DNA of 64,000 nt from Podospora anserina (lineage: Eukaryota), in the NCBI GenBank assembly GCA_017654855.1, contig CM030336.1, positions 4,154,001 through 4,218,000 on the forward strand, in the 5' to 3' direction. A model generated the notes under the pieces. The model saw only the letters and a list, made by a program, of their open reading frames with translations, was not told the DNA's origin and did not search any database. Made by a program: the position numbers and the translations under genes. Below are positions 42,851 through 45,872 of the stretch, piece by piece. The first letter of the stretch is position 1. Each line of letters starts with the position of its first letter.

Positions 42851-43610
42851 TCTTGAGGAGGCGCGTCACTATGGCAAACAGGAGCGTTGGTCTGAACCTC
42901 CTCCTGTACGGGTGACGCAACCCGCAGAACTCTGGCCATCTTGACCGGGAGGATGACCATGCTCAACAAGCCCAATAGTAGAACCTTGCTGCTGGATCGC
43001 GCCATCTCCCTCAGAGTTGGCATCCCCGACTTATGAGAAAATGTCTTCCAAGCTGACCCCCGAGCCCTATCCAGGGTGGTCAATGAGATGAGACGGTCCC
43101 CGGCTTATCTTATAGACTGAGGCCTCAAGCCAAGTTAAAACAACGATATTTTTGCCTAAGCTAATCTAAGCCTAAATCTAGCTTAGTTTACCAGCTTGAC
43201 TTTTTATACCCTTTTTTTATCTATAGATATTAATAATAGCCTAATTCGTAGTATTAATATTTTTATCAAAGTAATTTCAAAGCCTATTAAAGGATTATAA
43301 AAGATTAAAAAGGTCCAAATAATAAAGAATTTCTATTTTTATTGCTAATTAATAATTAAATCTTCGTTTGTTGAACTTTGATTTTCCTAGATTATTATGT
43401 TTTAAATAGCATTTCTTAATGACTACTAGTAGCTATATTATTAGGCTTTTTGTAAATTACCTATTAACTTTATTCTTTTTAATGTTATACAACTTTGAAA
43501 TATTTTTAATTATGAAATATTTAACGGTATTATCCTTAAAAAGTAATATCCTCTAGAGTATAATTATTATTACCGGGATTATTACGTTTAGTATTACCGA
43601 ATTAGTAACG

Positions 43611-44009
43611 TGTGACGAACCCCTGTACAGAACCTCTGAAATGGATACTCGGTTGAAGGCTACTTCTGACAATTAGTTCGGTGCAGCTAAACAGTGCACA
43701 ACAAGATGTCTCAATGTAAACATAAGATACCGTGAATACAAGCTGTGATTGCATACTGCGGAACTATCTATCTACACCAGCCAGTTCCTCCGTATATATA
43801 GACCTTGGGACCGTGGACCATTAACTTACAGACGGTCCTCGGTCCACTCCTGATTGGCCGATACTGGACCGTGGACCGTAAGCTCCGCCGCGGTCCCCGG
43901 TCCCCATCTTATTGGTCCGTTTGCCCACCTGGACCGTGAGCCCCGCTCGATCGCGCGGTCCAGTCCTAATTAGTCCCTCGTAGCCCCACTATCTTCCAGA
44001 ACCGTAACA
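43611..44009 (-). mobile_element. 3' LTR of a Ty3/gypsy element (variant A)
   Basis: TG...CA termini, 399 bp, TATA at 43793-43800, adjacent polypurine tract; first ~196 bp homologous to 45469-45663. Confidence 0.92.
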
Positions 44010-44013
44010 TAAT

Positions 44014-44024
44014 GCTCCCTCTCC
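44014..44024 (-). other. Polypurine tract of the retrotransposon
   Basis: Minus strand GGAGAGGGAGCATTA immediately precedes the LTR start TGTTACGG. Confidence 0.75.
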
Positions 44025-44119: not shown

Positions 44120-44759
44120 ATGCAGAAACGTTATCGTAAGACTGAACAGTCTTCTTCCCTTGCCTCACGAATCCTCCGCTGTGGTTCTGCCGTGATGCCG
44201 TGCTCTACCTGTTTTACCTCCGGAATCCCTTGCATCATGGCCTCTGGGTCTTCACGATGCGCGGAGTGCGTGCGCCGTAAGATTCTATGTGACGGGTCTT
44301 ACGTTGGCTCCGCCCGTGGGTATACCTTCCTTTTCTTCCCGCACCGTAATTGACCACTCTCTAGTGACCCGAACGATGGAAGAGCAGGATAGACTCGAGC
44401 GTGAGGAGCAAGAGCTTGAAGACCAACTCTCGCAACTGACTGCCAAACTTATCCGGGTAAAACGAACACGTCGCTCCCTCCGTGCTCGCGAGGAGCGTCT
44501 TTTCGCGCGGGGTATCCAGGAGGAGGATGCCCAGGTGGCGCAGTCCGCAGCTGCGGCGCTACCTGATTCTTCACCGGGTGCTCCTGCGCGGCCGGACGCC
44601 GCCCAGGACACCGTTCCGTGGTCTCCTCACGTCTCGGACCCTTCCTTAGGCCTTGACTGGCCTTCCGACCTTTCCTTCGATCCTGATGTGGCCGGTCCTT
44701 CCTTCCTGACTCCGCAGGGTGCCGCCGGTGGCGCGCCTTCCACTTCCCAAGGTGGTTGA
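44120..44759 (+). CDS. Retrotransposon-borne antisense Zn2Cys6/coiled-coil protein (about 196 aa)
   Basis: CSTCFTSGIPCIMASGSSRCAECVRRKILC fits CX2CX6CX8CX2CX6C; intron 44316..44364 (GTGGGT...CTAG) joins it in frame to the coiled coil LEREEQELEDQLSQLTAKL; start codon uncertain. Confidence 0.85.
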
Positions 44760-44770
44760 GACGCGTGGCA

Positions 44771-45468
44771 CTACTTGTATCTGGGTCCCCTCACACCTTC
44801 CAACCTCGTAGTGTAGTGTGTAGCACGTCGACCACTACGTCGAGGGCGCAGGTTCGATTCCTGTCGAGGTTCTTTAATATCCAAGTTTATGGGCACAACC
44901 CGTGAACTTAAGTACTTATCTTTTTGTTTGGGTCGGTCTGGGTGTCGCCGGTGGAACTCTTTTAACTTGTCTGGGCAGTTGAGGTTTGCCTCTGGTTCCC
45001 ACGAATTGTCTGTAGCTGGATATCCCAATTAACAAACTAAATTTTCCAATTGGCCTCTGTTGAACCGTGAAATTAGTATTTCTTTTACATTGTATTCTTC
45101 TTCTTTGTCTTCCGCCACTATCTGCGTGTTAGCTTTGCTTGCCGGTAGTGCCGGTTCTAGAAGTAAGATATAAAAAGTATATAACTTTAGACGTATTGTA
45201 TTAGGTAGCTTTAACTCGAATACCGTCTCCGAGATCTTTTTTTTTAACCTTGAATGGGCCTACTCTCCTATAGTCCAGCTTCTTACTAAGTTGTTTAGTA
45301 CGTAAATTGCGTATAGAAAGGAATATTATGTTTCCCCCTTTAAGGCAAGGTCCCTCGAGCTTTTTACTATTATAGTATTTCTGTATTTTTTCCCTTATAA
45401 ACTTTAGTTTTTACTTAAGCTTGCCGTAAAATATATATAGCTTATTTACCTTAACCCTAGCCCTAAGT
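44771..45468 (-). pseudogene. 3' remnant of gypsy pol (integrase GPF motif plus chromodomain)
   Basis: Minus strand reads KKLDYRRVGPF...FELKLP...LLEPA...EEYNVKEIL...GYPATDNSWEPEANLNCP; AT-rich and RIP-damaged from about 45030 to 45468. Confidence 0.88.
44802..44872 (+). ncRNA. tRNA-like cloverleaf with non-canonical 6-nt anticodon loop
   Basis: Acceptor AACCTCG/CGAGGTT, D stem GTGT/GCAC, stem TCGAC/GTCGA with loop CACTAC, T arm GCAGG-TTCGATT-CCTGT; B box GGTTCGATTCC. Confidence 0.8.
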
Positions 45469-45872
45469 TGTGATGAACCCCTGTACAGAACCTCTGAAAG
45501 GAATACGGGTTGAAGGTAACTTCTGACAATTGGTTCGGTGCAGCTAAACAGTGCACAACAAGATGTCTCAATGTAAACACAAGATACCGTGAATACAATT
45601 GTGAATTGCATACTGCGGAACTGTCTAGCCACACCAGCCAGTTCCTCCGTATATATAGACCTTGATTCTCCCCGATCATGGTGATCATTCCGCTCTTCCC
45701 CAATGATCATAATGATCGCTATGATCCTTCTCTGGTTCCTTATTGGTTGTACTTCCGTGATCACTGCACTTCCCAGTCTCATTGCCCATGATCGCCCAGA
45801 CCGCCGTGACCTTGTTCTGATTGGCTGGTGACCTTGCACTGCTCCACCGTTCCCGATGTTAAGGTTGTGACA
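45469..45872 (-). mobile_element. LTR of the same family with a different U3 half (variant B)
   Basis: TG...CA termini, 404 bp; matches LTR A up to TATATAGACCTTG and is unrelated afterwards. Confidence 0.9.

What the first reader, a model, noticed from the sequence alone, without database searches (positions are those of the whole stretch)
43808..43973. LTR A U3 is three palindromes GGACCGTGGACC-N14-GGTCCNCGGTCC, each followed by a CCAAT-like box
Units start at 43808, 43866 and 43931. The arms are conserved (third unit degenerate), while the spacers differ completely in sequence yet are exactly 14 nt each time. Each unit is followed by ATTGG/ATTAG, which is CCAAT on the element strand. Conserved spacer length with free spacer sequence points to a dimeric protein binding site rather than simple tandem duplication (inference).
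Basis: partly seen in the sequence, partly recalled or inferred. Interest (0 to 1): 0.82.

Follow-up and report, generated by a model that had tools for sequence, protein, structure and literature searches.

The report
Palindromic enhancer repeats in fungal LTR
The palindromes are real and sit in the promoter half of a long terminal repeat of the Podospora retrotransposon crapaud, where they look like three tandem copies of a CCAAT-box-plus-palindrome enhancer module, a known kind of arrangement whose binding proteins are still unknown.

Summary
The motif is real. GGACCNNGGACC-N14-GGTCCNNGGTCC occurs perfectly at 43808 and 43866, against 0 matches in 100 shuffles. The third "unit" is misread. 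In the true 58-bp register (43808, 43866, 43924) its spacer is 9/14 identical to unit 2's, and only one hexamer per arm survives. What all three modules share is CCAAT-type box, 7 nt, then GGACCG-N19-CGGTCC, with four perfect copies and one with 1 mismatch. In modules 1 and 2 this pair is doubled at a 7-bp offset.

The host is a fungus of the Podospora anserina complex. The repeat is a 399-bp LTR on the minus strand. It is the 3' LTR of a truncated Ty3/gypsy chromovirus and fits the published family crapaud. That family's U3 is known to be hypervariable, and its promoter binding sites are stated to be unknown (PMC10787394).

Two other crapaud-like LTRs in the window share R-U5 but carry different U3s. 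Each U3 is also enriched in inverted repeats; the R-U5 halves are not.

Best reading: tandem enhancer modules bound by the CCAAT-binding complex and a symmetric factor. This is inferred, not shown. Genomic copies could not be surveyed.

Side find: an antisense zinc-cluster-like ORF lies next to this U3.

The parts
43611..44009 (-). LTR A, 399 bp; on the element strand TGTTACG...CGTCACA; U3 43801-44009, TATA 43793-43800, R-U5 43611-43792
   Evidence: 43611-43807 is 92% identical to 45469-45664 and 74% identical to 32703-32905; the ends were read from the sequence
43793..43800 (-). TATATATA box, invariant in all three LTR copies, 7 nt downstream (element strand) of module 1
43808..43865 (.). Module 1 (58 bp), TATA-proximal: GGACCGTGGACC, 14 nt, GGTCCTCGGTCC, 7 nt, ATTGG (43853-43857; GCCAATCAG on the element strand)
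43866..43923 (.). Module 2 (58 bp): GGACCGTGGACC, 14 nt, GGTCCCCGGTCC, 7 nt, ATTGG (43911-43915; ACCAATAAG on the element strand)
   Evidence: the 7-nt tandem units TGGACCG and CGGTCCC were found by TRF
43924..43981 (.). Module 3 (58 bp), distal and decayed: keeps only GGACCG at 43931 and CGGTCC at 43956 (CTGGACCG-N19-CGGTCCAG), 7 nt, then ATTAG (43969-43973)
   Evidence: (I23, D2, D4)
43808..43961 (.). Five copies of the inverted hexamer pair GGACCG-N19-CGGTCC, starting at 43808, 43815 (1 mismatch), 43866, 43873 and 43931
   Evidence: 9 of the window's 33 GGACCG hexamers lie in these 154 bp
44015..44024 (-). Purine-rich tract GGAGAGGGAG, 5 nt upstream (element strand) of the LTR start; a candidate polypurine tract
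   Evidence: reading it as a PPT is inference
44195..44759 (+). Antisense ORF between the pol stop and LTR A: exon 44195 (or in-frame ATG 44120)-44315, intron 44316-44364, exon 44365-44759. It encodes a Cys6 zinc-cluster-like head plus a coiled coil
   Evidence: Zn_clus 21.0 bits, cut-off 21; 171 codons, no stop, 152/171 identical to P0125
44771..45410 (-). Broken, RIP-like remnants of a chromoviral pol 3' end: integrase SH3 (45201-45410), SH3-chromo linker (45029-45259), chromodomain end and pol stop (44771-45028)
45469..45872 (-). LTR B, about 404 bp: same R-U5, unrelated U3 built of TGATC(A) motifs plus two CCAAT boxes in the same contexts as in LTR A
   Evidence: the right end is uncertain
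32594..32905 (+). LTR C (U3 start not determined), RIP-like. Third U3 type, with GGTGAGCC-N9-GGCTCACC at 32594-32618; TATA at 32708-32715

Best explanation
[quoted passage not shown] Its U3 belongs to one of that family's many U3 subfamilies. It consists of three tandem 58-bp enhancer/promoter modules placed directly upstream of the TATA box. On the element strand each module reads: CCAAT-type box, 7 nt, then an inverted pair of GGACCG hexamers separated by 19 nt. In the two TATA-proximal modules the pair is doubled at a 7-bp offset. The most likely working (inferred, not shown) is as follows. The CCAAT boxes recruit the host CCAAT-binding complex (HapB/C/E, NF-Y type). The hexamer pairs are bound by a dyad-symmetric host factor, either a dimer with widely spaced heads or two interleaved dimers. 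The fixed CCAAT-N7-hexamer distance allows cooperation between the two. Repeating the module raises transcription of the element. Different U3 subfamilies plug different symmetric motifs into the same CCAAT/TATA scaffold.
For: Shown: the motif is non-random. It lies in the U3 of an LTR whose TATA-to-end half is shared by two other copies, while the three U3s are unrelated. The host is in the P. anserina complex: GatB is 96% identical to a P. pseudopauciseta cluster. Integrase-SH3 and chromodomain remnants and a purine tract lie upstream on the element strand. These features match the published description of crapaud: LTR pair about 800 bp, variation confined to U3 before the TATA box, RT-RN-IN-chromodomain, 14 subfamilies (PMC10787394, sections 6, 8, 12 and 16 read). 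Within the array, arms are 23/24 identical against 5/14 for the spacer and 10/20 for the tail between modules 1 and 2. The CCAAT-to-hexamer gap is 7 nt in all three modules. Both CCAAT contexts of LTR A (GCCAATCAG, ACCAATAAG) recur in LTR B, in the other order. All three unrelated U3s are enriched in short inverted repeats: summed arm length was reached by 1/300, 1/300 and 3/300 shuffles. The three R-U5 halves are not enriched: 172/300, 92/300 and 300/300. The single arm position that differs between the two arms is not compensated, so hexamers rather than base-pairing are what is kept. Repeated palindromes upstream of the TATA box are already described as putative regulators in plant Sirevirus LTRs (PMC2829016, passages seen).
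Against: Only one LTR of this U3 type, with two intact modules, could be examined. The arms were defined post hoc. There are no expression or binding data. Repeated arms could be homogenised by slippage or gene conversion without selection. This copy is a truncated element beside RIP-like DNA and may be dead. GGACCG is not enriched outside the LTR: 33 in the window against 28.8 +/- 5.6 expected, and 9 of the 33 lie here. No factor with this motif was found: the hexamer/pentamer literature search returned 275 papers, and none of the 25 listed concerns a fungal factor. Half-sites 25 bp apart (about 2.4 helical turns) are unusually far apart for a simple dimer. The IR enrichment in LTR B partly follows from a self-complementary motif being repeated. 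The U3 start of LTR C was not determined, so flank may have been included.
Confidence: 0.55

Rival explanations
1. The arms act as nucleic-acid hairpins, in the U3 part of the element's RNA 3' end or in single-stranded cDNA (for stability, 3'-end formation or reverse transcription). Under this reading, stems are kept while loops drift.
For: Each unit folds as ssDNA better than shuffles: -11.4, -15.4 and -10.1 kcal/mol, z -3.8, -4.2 and -2.2. All three unrelated U3s keep inverted repeats although their sequences differ, a pattern that would also fit selection for structure.
Against: The one variable arm position gives the same mismatch in units 1 and 2, with no compensating change. The arms pair equally well between units, with the CCAAT box in the loop (-16.4 kcal/mol, z -5.0). 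The RNA minimum-energy fold of the whole U3 uses that inter-unit pairing rather than the N14 loops, and the whole U3 gives only z -2.35, with 4/200 shuffles as good. A self-complementary protein site gives the same fold scores by construction.
Confidence: 0.1
2. There is no function. The array is a by-product of replication or reverse-transcription slippage (7-nt and 58-nt duplications, one inverted duplication), and its repeated arms are kept alike by concerted evolution.
For: TRF sees exact 7-nt tandem doublets TGGACCG and CGGTCCC. The modules are clear 58-bp tandem duplicates. The third module is decaying. The element copy is truncated and flanked by RIP-like sequence.
Against: The contrast of arms 23/24 against spacer 5/14 within one duplicated module needs an extra process. 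The CCAAT boxes and their 7-nt distance are kept as well. Inverted-repeat enrichment recurs in two unrelated U3 types but not in R-U5. Published data show that U3 subfamilies each proliferated, so they were working promoters (PMC10787394, sections 6 and 8).
Confidence: 0.2
3. GGACC acts on the RNA as an m6A (DRACH-type) methylation site clustered in the element's 3' untranslated U3.
For: GGACC fits the DRACH consensus. This was noticed only from titles in the listing and from recall. There are 5 GGACC and 6 GGTCC pentamers on the plus strand between 43808 and 43961.
Against: Only one orientation would be a DRACH site on the RNA. The strict dyad symmetry, the extended hexamer GGACCG and the fixed N19 are therefore unexplained. 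No evidence on m6A in Podospora was looked at.
Confidence: 0.03

Closest known systems
[quoted passage not shown] 2024, Mob DNA, PMC10787394; sections 3, 6, 8, 12 and 16 and term searches read)
   Same: Same host group. LTRs of about 400 bp. Variation is confined to U3 upstream of the TATA box, with a conserved 3' half. It is a Ty3/gypsy element with a chromodomain, has many solo/fragment copies, and includes copies with disparate LTRs.
   Different: The paper classifies U3 types but states that promoter binding sites are unknown. The words palindrom* and CCAAT do not occur in its main text, and its supplements as held contain no LTR sequence text. Which of the 14 subfamilies LTR A belongs to could not be determined.
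Repeated palindromic motifs (RM boxes) upstream of the TATA box in plant Sirevirus LTRs (Bousios et al. 2010, PMC2829016; passages read)
   Same: Multiple dyad-symmetric repeats cluster in the LTR just upstream of a conserved TATA box. A CGG/CCG core makes the symmetry, the intervening bases vary, and a regulatory role is proposed but untested.
   Different: These are plant Ty1/copia elements and are not homologous. Their RM half-sites are close together, whereas here the hexamers are 19 nt apart, doubled at a 7-bp offset, and coupled to CCAAT boxes.
Tnt1/Retrolyc1 U3 subfamilies with tandem regulatory boxes (as summarised in PMC2829016; details recalled)
   Same: A retrotransposon family with homogeneous coding regions whose subfamilies differ in U3 regulatory repeats.
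   Different: This is a plant copia element. Its boxes have shown stress-responsive activity, and nothing is shown for crapaud.
Fungal promoters combining Zn2Cys6 inverted repeats with a CCAAT box (e.g. Xyr1 sites in Trichoderma cellulase/xylanase promoters; recalled, no call)
   Same: It works like a composite of a HAP-complex CCAAT box next to an inverted repeat for a dimeric factor.
   Different: The motif is different, the spacers are shorter and these are host genes. The comparison is from memory only.
Antisense genes next to the 3' LTR: plant Retand elements (PMC11963269, abstract/listing only) and HTLV-1 HBZ (recalled)
   Same: An extra ORF on the opposite strand between pol and the 3' LTR. 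HBZ is a coiled-coil DNA-binding-type protein transcribed from the 3' LTR.
   Different: Nothing shows that the ORF here is transcribed, that it starts in U3, or that its product binds DNA.

Membership tests
LTR of an LTR retrotransposon | TG...CA ends with short inverted termini | tested here: met
   Element strand TGTTACG...CGTCACA; LTR B starts TGTCAC and ends CATCACA.
LTR of an LTR retrotransposon | Adjacent internal sequence: pol 3' end and a purine tract upstream of the 3' LTR | tested here: met
   Chromo 27 bits against cut-off 25.1. SH3_Tf2-1 at 22.6 bits, below its cut-off of 30. 5 of 6 tested relatives of the linker fragment carry SH3_Tf2-1 and 3 also carry Chromo. GGAGAGGGAG lies 5 nt from the LTR.
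LTR of an LTR retrotransposon | Target-site duplication flanking the element | tested here: inconclusive
   TAACG to the left of LTR A and TAATG to its right agree at 4/5. But the right side is element-internal, so this is probably chance. No matching pair was found for LTR A with LTR B.
crapaud (Podospora Ty3/gypsy chromovirus) | [quoted passage not shown] | tested here: met
   GatB is 96% identical to a P. pseudopauciseta cluster; the next best hits are at 88% or lower in other genera.
crapaud (Podospora Ty3/gypsy chromovirus) | LTR of about 400 bp, with a conserved 3' half from the TATA box on and an unrelated 5' half (U3) between subfamilies | tested here: met
   LTRs are 399 and about 404 bp. 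R-U5 is 92% (A against B) and 74% (against C) identical, and the U3s cannot be aligned.
crapaud (Podospora Ty3/gypsy chromovirus) | Nucleotide identity to the reference element (EU697463.1) or to the published LTR set | not testable with these tools
   No eukaryotic nucleotide collection was on hand, and the paper's supplements hold no sequence text.
CCAAT box of the CCAAT-binding complex (HapB/C/E, NF-Y type) | CCAAT pentamer with fitting flanks in a promoter | tested here: met
   GCCAATCAG lies 57 nt and ACCAATAAG 115 nt upstream of the TATA start. The third box is CTAAT, which does not fit. The flank consensus is recalled.
CCAAT box of the CCAAT-binding complex (HapB/C/E, NF-Y type) | Binding by the complex | not testable with these tools
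   Needs EMSA/ChIP.
Zn2Cys6 (Gal4-type) binding site | Pair of CGG triplets in inverted, everted or direct orientation at a fixed short spacing | tested here: inconclusive
   Each hexamer holds CCG/CGG in everted orientation, with 19 nt between triplets. That is longer than the spacings I recall for characterised family members (0-18). No binding test was possible.
Zn(2)-C6 fungal-type domain (antisense ORF product) | Six cysteines spaced CX2CX6CX5-12CX2CX6-8C and a Pfam Zn_clus match | tested here: inconclusive
   The spacing CX2CX6CX8CX2CX6C is present. Zn_clus scores 21.0 bits at a cut-off of 21 on the exon peptide and 18.4 on the longer frame. The profile is only partly covered. The basic residues between Cys2 and Cys3 that contact DNA in Gal4 (recalled) are absent (FTSGIP).
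Sirevirus RM boxes | Homology to plant Ty1/copia Sirevirus LTRs | tested here: not met
   The element has a chromoviral Ty3/gypsy integrase. The resemblance is in layout only.

The most novel reading that the evidence does not exclude
crapaud carries its own regulator. The antisense ORF between pol and the 3' LTR (44195-44759) would encode a Cys6 zinc-cluster-like protein that dimerises through an antiparallel coiled coil, residues about 35-93. By my arithmetic that is roughly 87 A, or about 25 bp. This would put two DNA-binding heads at the centre-to-centre distance of the GGACCG/CGGTCC half-sites. The symmetric U3 modules would then act both as a bidirectional promoter, with the ORF's ATG 111-186 nt from the U3 edge behind a CT-rich tract, and as the operator for this element-encoded factor. 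That would be a fungal counterpart of retroviral 3'-LTR antisense regulators. Support: the ORF is intact although the neighbouring pol is broken. It has 6 relatives, all in the Podospora complex, two of them in one genome. The homodimer model supports pairing but does not show it: score 0.53 against best control 0.00. The mark was reached by 21 of 30 proteins solved as pairs of one chain and 0 of 23 solved as single chains. On eukaryotes it was reached by 17 of 29, but by only 1 of 7 without an older solved relative, and by 0 of 30 single chains. The runs agree in at least 88% of contacts and partner pLDDT is at least 75. Contacts such as 72-58, 79-51 and 41-86 indicate the antiparallel register. 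Against: internal regions of crapaud do not track LTR subfamilies (PMC10787394, section 12), so one protein could not match all U3 types. The first zinc-cluster half lacks basic residues. 25 bp puts the half-sites on different helix faces. The coiled-coil pass may be generic.
Probability: 0.07. Interest if true: 0.85.

Novelty: new member of a known kind. Interest (0 to 1): 0.4.

Why it matters
Westerberg et al. (PMC10787394) left open why crapaud split into many U3 subfamilies and what binds them. This analysis gives that question a concrete form. At least three U3 types in this window keep a common TATA and CCAAT framework, and each fills it with its own dyad-symmetric repeat. That predicts subfamily-specific host factors and expression patterns, as in Tnt1 of tobacco. 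It also gives defined mutations to test: the hexamers, the N19 spacer and the N7 gap to the CCAAT box. Crapaud LTRs are the most abundant repeats in these genomes and often lie next to genes, so such portable bidirectional enhancer modules could also rewire host genes. The antisense zinc-cluster-like ORF, if it belongs to the element, would be an undescribed gene of a fungal chromovirus.

Tried and rejected
1. Survey of other genomic copies was not possible.

2. The supplements of PMC10787394 were searched for the arm sequence and gave 0 hits. The alignment figure is a picture.

3. Espagne 2008 (PMC2441463) has 0 occurrences of 'crapaud' in its main text. The 'repa'/solo LTR search gave nothing useful.

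4. I first read LTR A as a solo LTR with TSD TAACG/TAATG. I dropped this after pol remnants and a purine tract were found to its right.

5. LTR B as the 5' LTR of the same copy is unresolved. No primer-binding-site-like TGG follows it and no TSD pairs with LTR A.

6. The search for longer relatives of the pol C-terminal fragment gave no hit. This is weak evidence, since transposon proteins are often not predicted.

7. The PDB sequence search with the ORF product gave a best E of 0.34, so nothing usable. Atlas neighbours are unnamed Ascomycota clusters, with weak structural likeness to Zn(2)-C6 proteins (TM 0.26-0.48 by query), a lead only.

8. Matching the hexamer to fungal factor motifs that I recall (CreA, FarA/B CCTCGG, CSRE, AflR, NirA, StuA, Zap1 and others) gave no consistent fit across units. 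CCTCGG occurs in unit 1 only.

9. GC by codon position of the antisense ORF is 0.67/0.58/0.59, unlike host genes in the window (GC3 0.60-0.70, GC2 0.42-0.43). The region has a clear 3-base periodicity but not the host pattern, so coding status is supported only by the open frame and its relatives.

10. The m6A reading is listed as a rival at low confidence.

Full report
OBSERVATION. The plus strand reads GGACCGTGGACC-ATTAACTTACAGAC-GGTCCTCGGTCC at 43808-43845 and GGACCGTGGACC-GTAAGCTCCGCCGC-GGTCCCCGGTCC at 43866-43903. The degenerate pattern GGACCNNGGACC-N14-GGTCCNNGGTCC, with up to 3 mismatches, finds these two places and nothing else in 64 kb. It finds nothing in 100 dinucleotide shuffles. 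GGACCNNGGACC occurs 5 times against 0.17 expected, four of them here. ATTGG (43853, 43911) and ATTAG (43969) each follow the last CGGTCC after exactly 7 nt. Two of the three palindromes and all three boxes are therefore as described.

THE THIRD UNIT. The repeat finder shows that the array has a 58-bp period. CGGTCC-plus-box recurs at 43840, 43898 and 43956. TGGACCGTAAGCTCCGC at 43872 matches TGGACCGTGAGCCCCGC at 43930 at 88%. Cut in that register (43808, 43866, 43924), module 3 has a spacer 9/14 identical to that of module 2 and has lost one pentamer of each arm. 'Completely different spacers' holds only for module 1 against module 2 (5/14). One formula fits all modules: GGACCG-N19-CGGTCC. It is perfect at 43808, 43866, 43873 and 43931 and has one mismatch at 43815. 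It occurs as two interleaved pairs offset by 7 bp in modules 1 and 2 and as one pair in module 3. Nine of the window's 33 GGACCG hexamers lie in these 154 bp. The total of 33 is not above expectation (28.8 +/- 5.6).

WHAT THE REGION IS.
- The stretch 43611-43807 recurs at 45469-45664 (92%) and, inverted and RIP-like, at 32703-32905 (74%).
- All three copies share the segment from AGGTCTATATATACGG to GGGGTTCRTCACA and are unalignable upstream of the TATA box.
- LTR A is 399 bp (TGTTACG...CGTCACA on the minus strand) and LTR B about 404 bp.
- To the right of LTR A the minus strand carries broken pieces of a chromoviral integrase. These are a Tf2-type SH3 (22.6 bits, below its cut-off), a linker whose relatives carry SH3_Tf2-1 (5 of 6 tested) and Chromo (3 of 6), and a chromodomain end (27 bits, above its cut-off).
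- A pol stop follows at 44771, and a purine tract lies 5 nt before the LTR.
- A housekeeping gene in the window (GatB) is 96% identical to a Podospora pseudopauciseta cluster.
- All of this matches crapaud as described by Westerberg et al. 2024 (PMC10787394). That family is a Ty3/gypsy element with a chromodomain, has two LTRs totalling about 800 bp, and confines its variation to U3 before the TATA box. It has 14 subfamilies and many fragments, and 7 of its 150 full copies have unlike LTRs.
- Direct sequence comparison with the reference element was not possible with the tools on hand.
- The paper states that promoter binding sites of the subfamilies are unknown. Its text mentions neither palindromes nor CCAAT boxes.

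COMPARISON OF THE THREE U3s.
- On the element strand LTR A reads CTAAT-box, module 3, ACCAATAAG, module 2, GCCAATCAG, module 1, TATA.
- LTR B has the same two CCAAT contexts in the other order, filled in with seven TGATC(A) motifs.
- LTR C has GCCAATTAAG and its own palindromes, for example GGTGAGCC-N9-GGCTCACC.
- I counted perfect inverted repeats with arms of at least 6 nt and loops of at most 22 nt. All three U3s exceed dinucleotide shuffles: 1/300, 1/300 and 3/300 shuffles reach the observed sum. The three R-U5 halves do not: 172/300, 92/300 and 300/300.
- Caveats: repeating a self-complementary motif produces such repeats automatically, and the start of LTR C's U3 is not known.

MECHANISM.
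- Protein site against hairpin: each unit folds well as single-stranded DNA (z -2.2 to -4.2). But arms of neighbouring units pair even better across the CCAAT box (z -5.0), and the RNA minimum-energy fold of the whole U3 uses that alternative (z -2.35).
- The only position at which the two arms differ gives an uncompensated mismatch in both intact units. What is conserved is the hexamer and its distances, not pairing. That favours a double-stranded, dyad-symmetric protein site.
- Selection against neutrality: between modules 1 and 2 the arms are 23/24 identical, the spacer 5/14 and the tail 10/20 (Fisher p = 1e-4, categories chosen post hoc). Concerted evolution of repeated arms cannot be excluded.
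- I therefore read the array as three tandem enhancer modules, in which the CCAAT-binding complex acts together with an unknown symmetric factor, with confidence 0.55.
- No known factor motif could be assigned. My recalled list did not fit consistently, and the literature word search (275 papers, 25 listed) showed none for fungi.

SIDE FINDING.
- The 760 bp between the pol stop and LTR A are filled by an open frame on the opposite strand: 44195 (or 44120)-44315, a 49-nt GT..AG intron, then 44365-44759. It has 171 codons and no stop, and it is 152/171 identical to P0125.
- P0125 is an annotated 'Zn(2)-C6 fungal-type domain' protein of P. pseudopauciseta whose model confirms the splice.
- The search returned 6 relatives, all from the Podospora complex where named, two of them in one genome.
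- The head has the cysteine spacing CX2CX6CX8CX2CX6C. Its Pfam score is borderline: 21.0 bits at a cut-off of 21.
- A homodimer model supports pairing but does not show it: score 0.53 against best control 0.00. The mark was reached by 21 of 30 proteins solved as pairs of one chain and 0 of 23 solved as single chains. On eukaryotes it was reached by 17 of 29, by only 1 of 7 without an older solved relative, and by 0 of 30 single chains. The runs agree in at least 88% of contacts, and partner pLDDT is at least 75.
- The contact list (72-58, 79-51, 41-86, 65-65) implies an antiparallel coil over residues 35-93. My arithmetic (about 1.5 A per residue, 3.4 A per bp) makes that about 87 A, or about 25 bp, which is the hexamer centre-to-centre distance. 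This is a coincidence worth testing, no more.
- Three points speak against it. The paper finds that internal regions do not follow LTR subfamilies. The first half of the zinc cluster lacks basic residues. And 25 bp is 2.4 helical turns.

NOVELTY. Hypervariable U3 subfamilies of crapaud are published. Repeated palindromes with a CGG/CCG core upstream of the TATA box are published for plant Sireviruses (PMC2829016), and U3 subfamilies with different regulatory repeats are published for Tnt1. The finding is a new, well-defined member of that kind in a fungal chromovirus. Its composite layout (CCAAT-N7-hexamer, N19 pair, 7-bp interleaving) did not appear in the papers I could read.

LIMITS. I examined one LTR of this type and had no genomic copies and no expression or binding data. 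Family membership rests on features, not on alignment to the reference.

Noticed in passing
window 44120-44759 (+): An intact antisense ORF (one 49-nt intron) lies between the pol stop and the 3' LTR of the truncated crapaud copy. It has a Cys6 zinc-cluster-like head plus a coiled coil, and its relatives were found only in the Podospora complex. The homodimer model passes with an antiparallel register.
   Followed up: partly
window 45029-45468 (-): The pol remnants are AT-rich with RIP-like indices (GC 0.35, TpA/ApT 1.81). The adjoining antisense-ORF region and the LTR A U3 are not (GC 0.57-0.60). The damage stops near the pol stop.
   Followed up: partly
window 45450-45467: The telomere-like TTAACCCTAGCCCTAAG directly abuts the U5 end of LTR B, where a primer-binding site would sit if B were a 5' LTR.
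   Followed up: no
window 43564-43611 and 43000-43610: A 24-nt tandem repeat (2 copies, 80% matches) touches the U5 end of LTR A. The whole left flank is AT-rich (GC 0.30), and its origin is unknown.
   Followed up: no
window 60221-60239 (-): This is the only other GGACCNNGGACC in the window: TGGAACT TGGACCT TGGACCT, 7-bp repeats about 65-85 nt upstream of the ATG of an unassigned ORF (59640-60182, minus strand; no Pfam hit). It is a possible host site for the same factor, or chance (0.17 expected in total).
   Followed up: partly
window 45665-45872 (LTR B U3): There are seven TGATC(A) motifs, three of them at a 10-bp period, and CAAGGTCAC direct repeats flanking the distal CCAAT box.
   Followed up: partly
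window 32594-32700 (LTR C U3): Several palindromes: GGTGAGCC-N9-GGCTCACC, ACCTCT-N4-AGAGGT and GCTCAC-N12-GTGAGC. The copy carries mostly C>T and G>A changes relative to A and B: 40 transitions against 13-15 transversions.
   Followed up: partly
window 43943-43958: The spacer of module 3 holds overlapping CG-rich palindromes (CGATCG, CGCGCG) that are absent from modules 1 and 2 (I9/I10).
   Followed up: no
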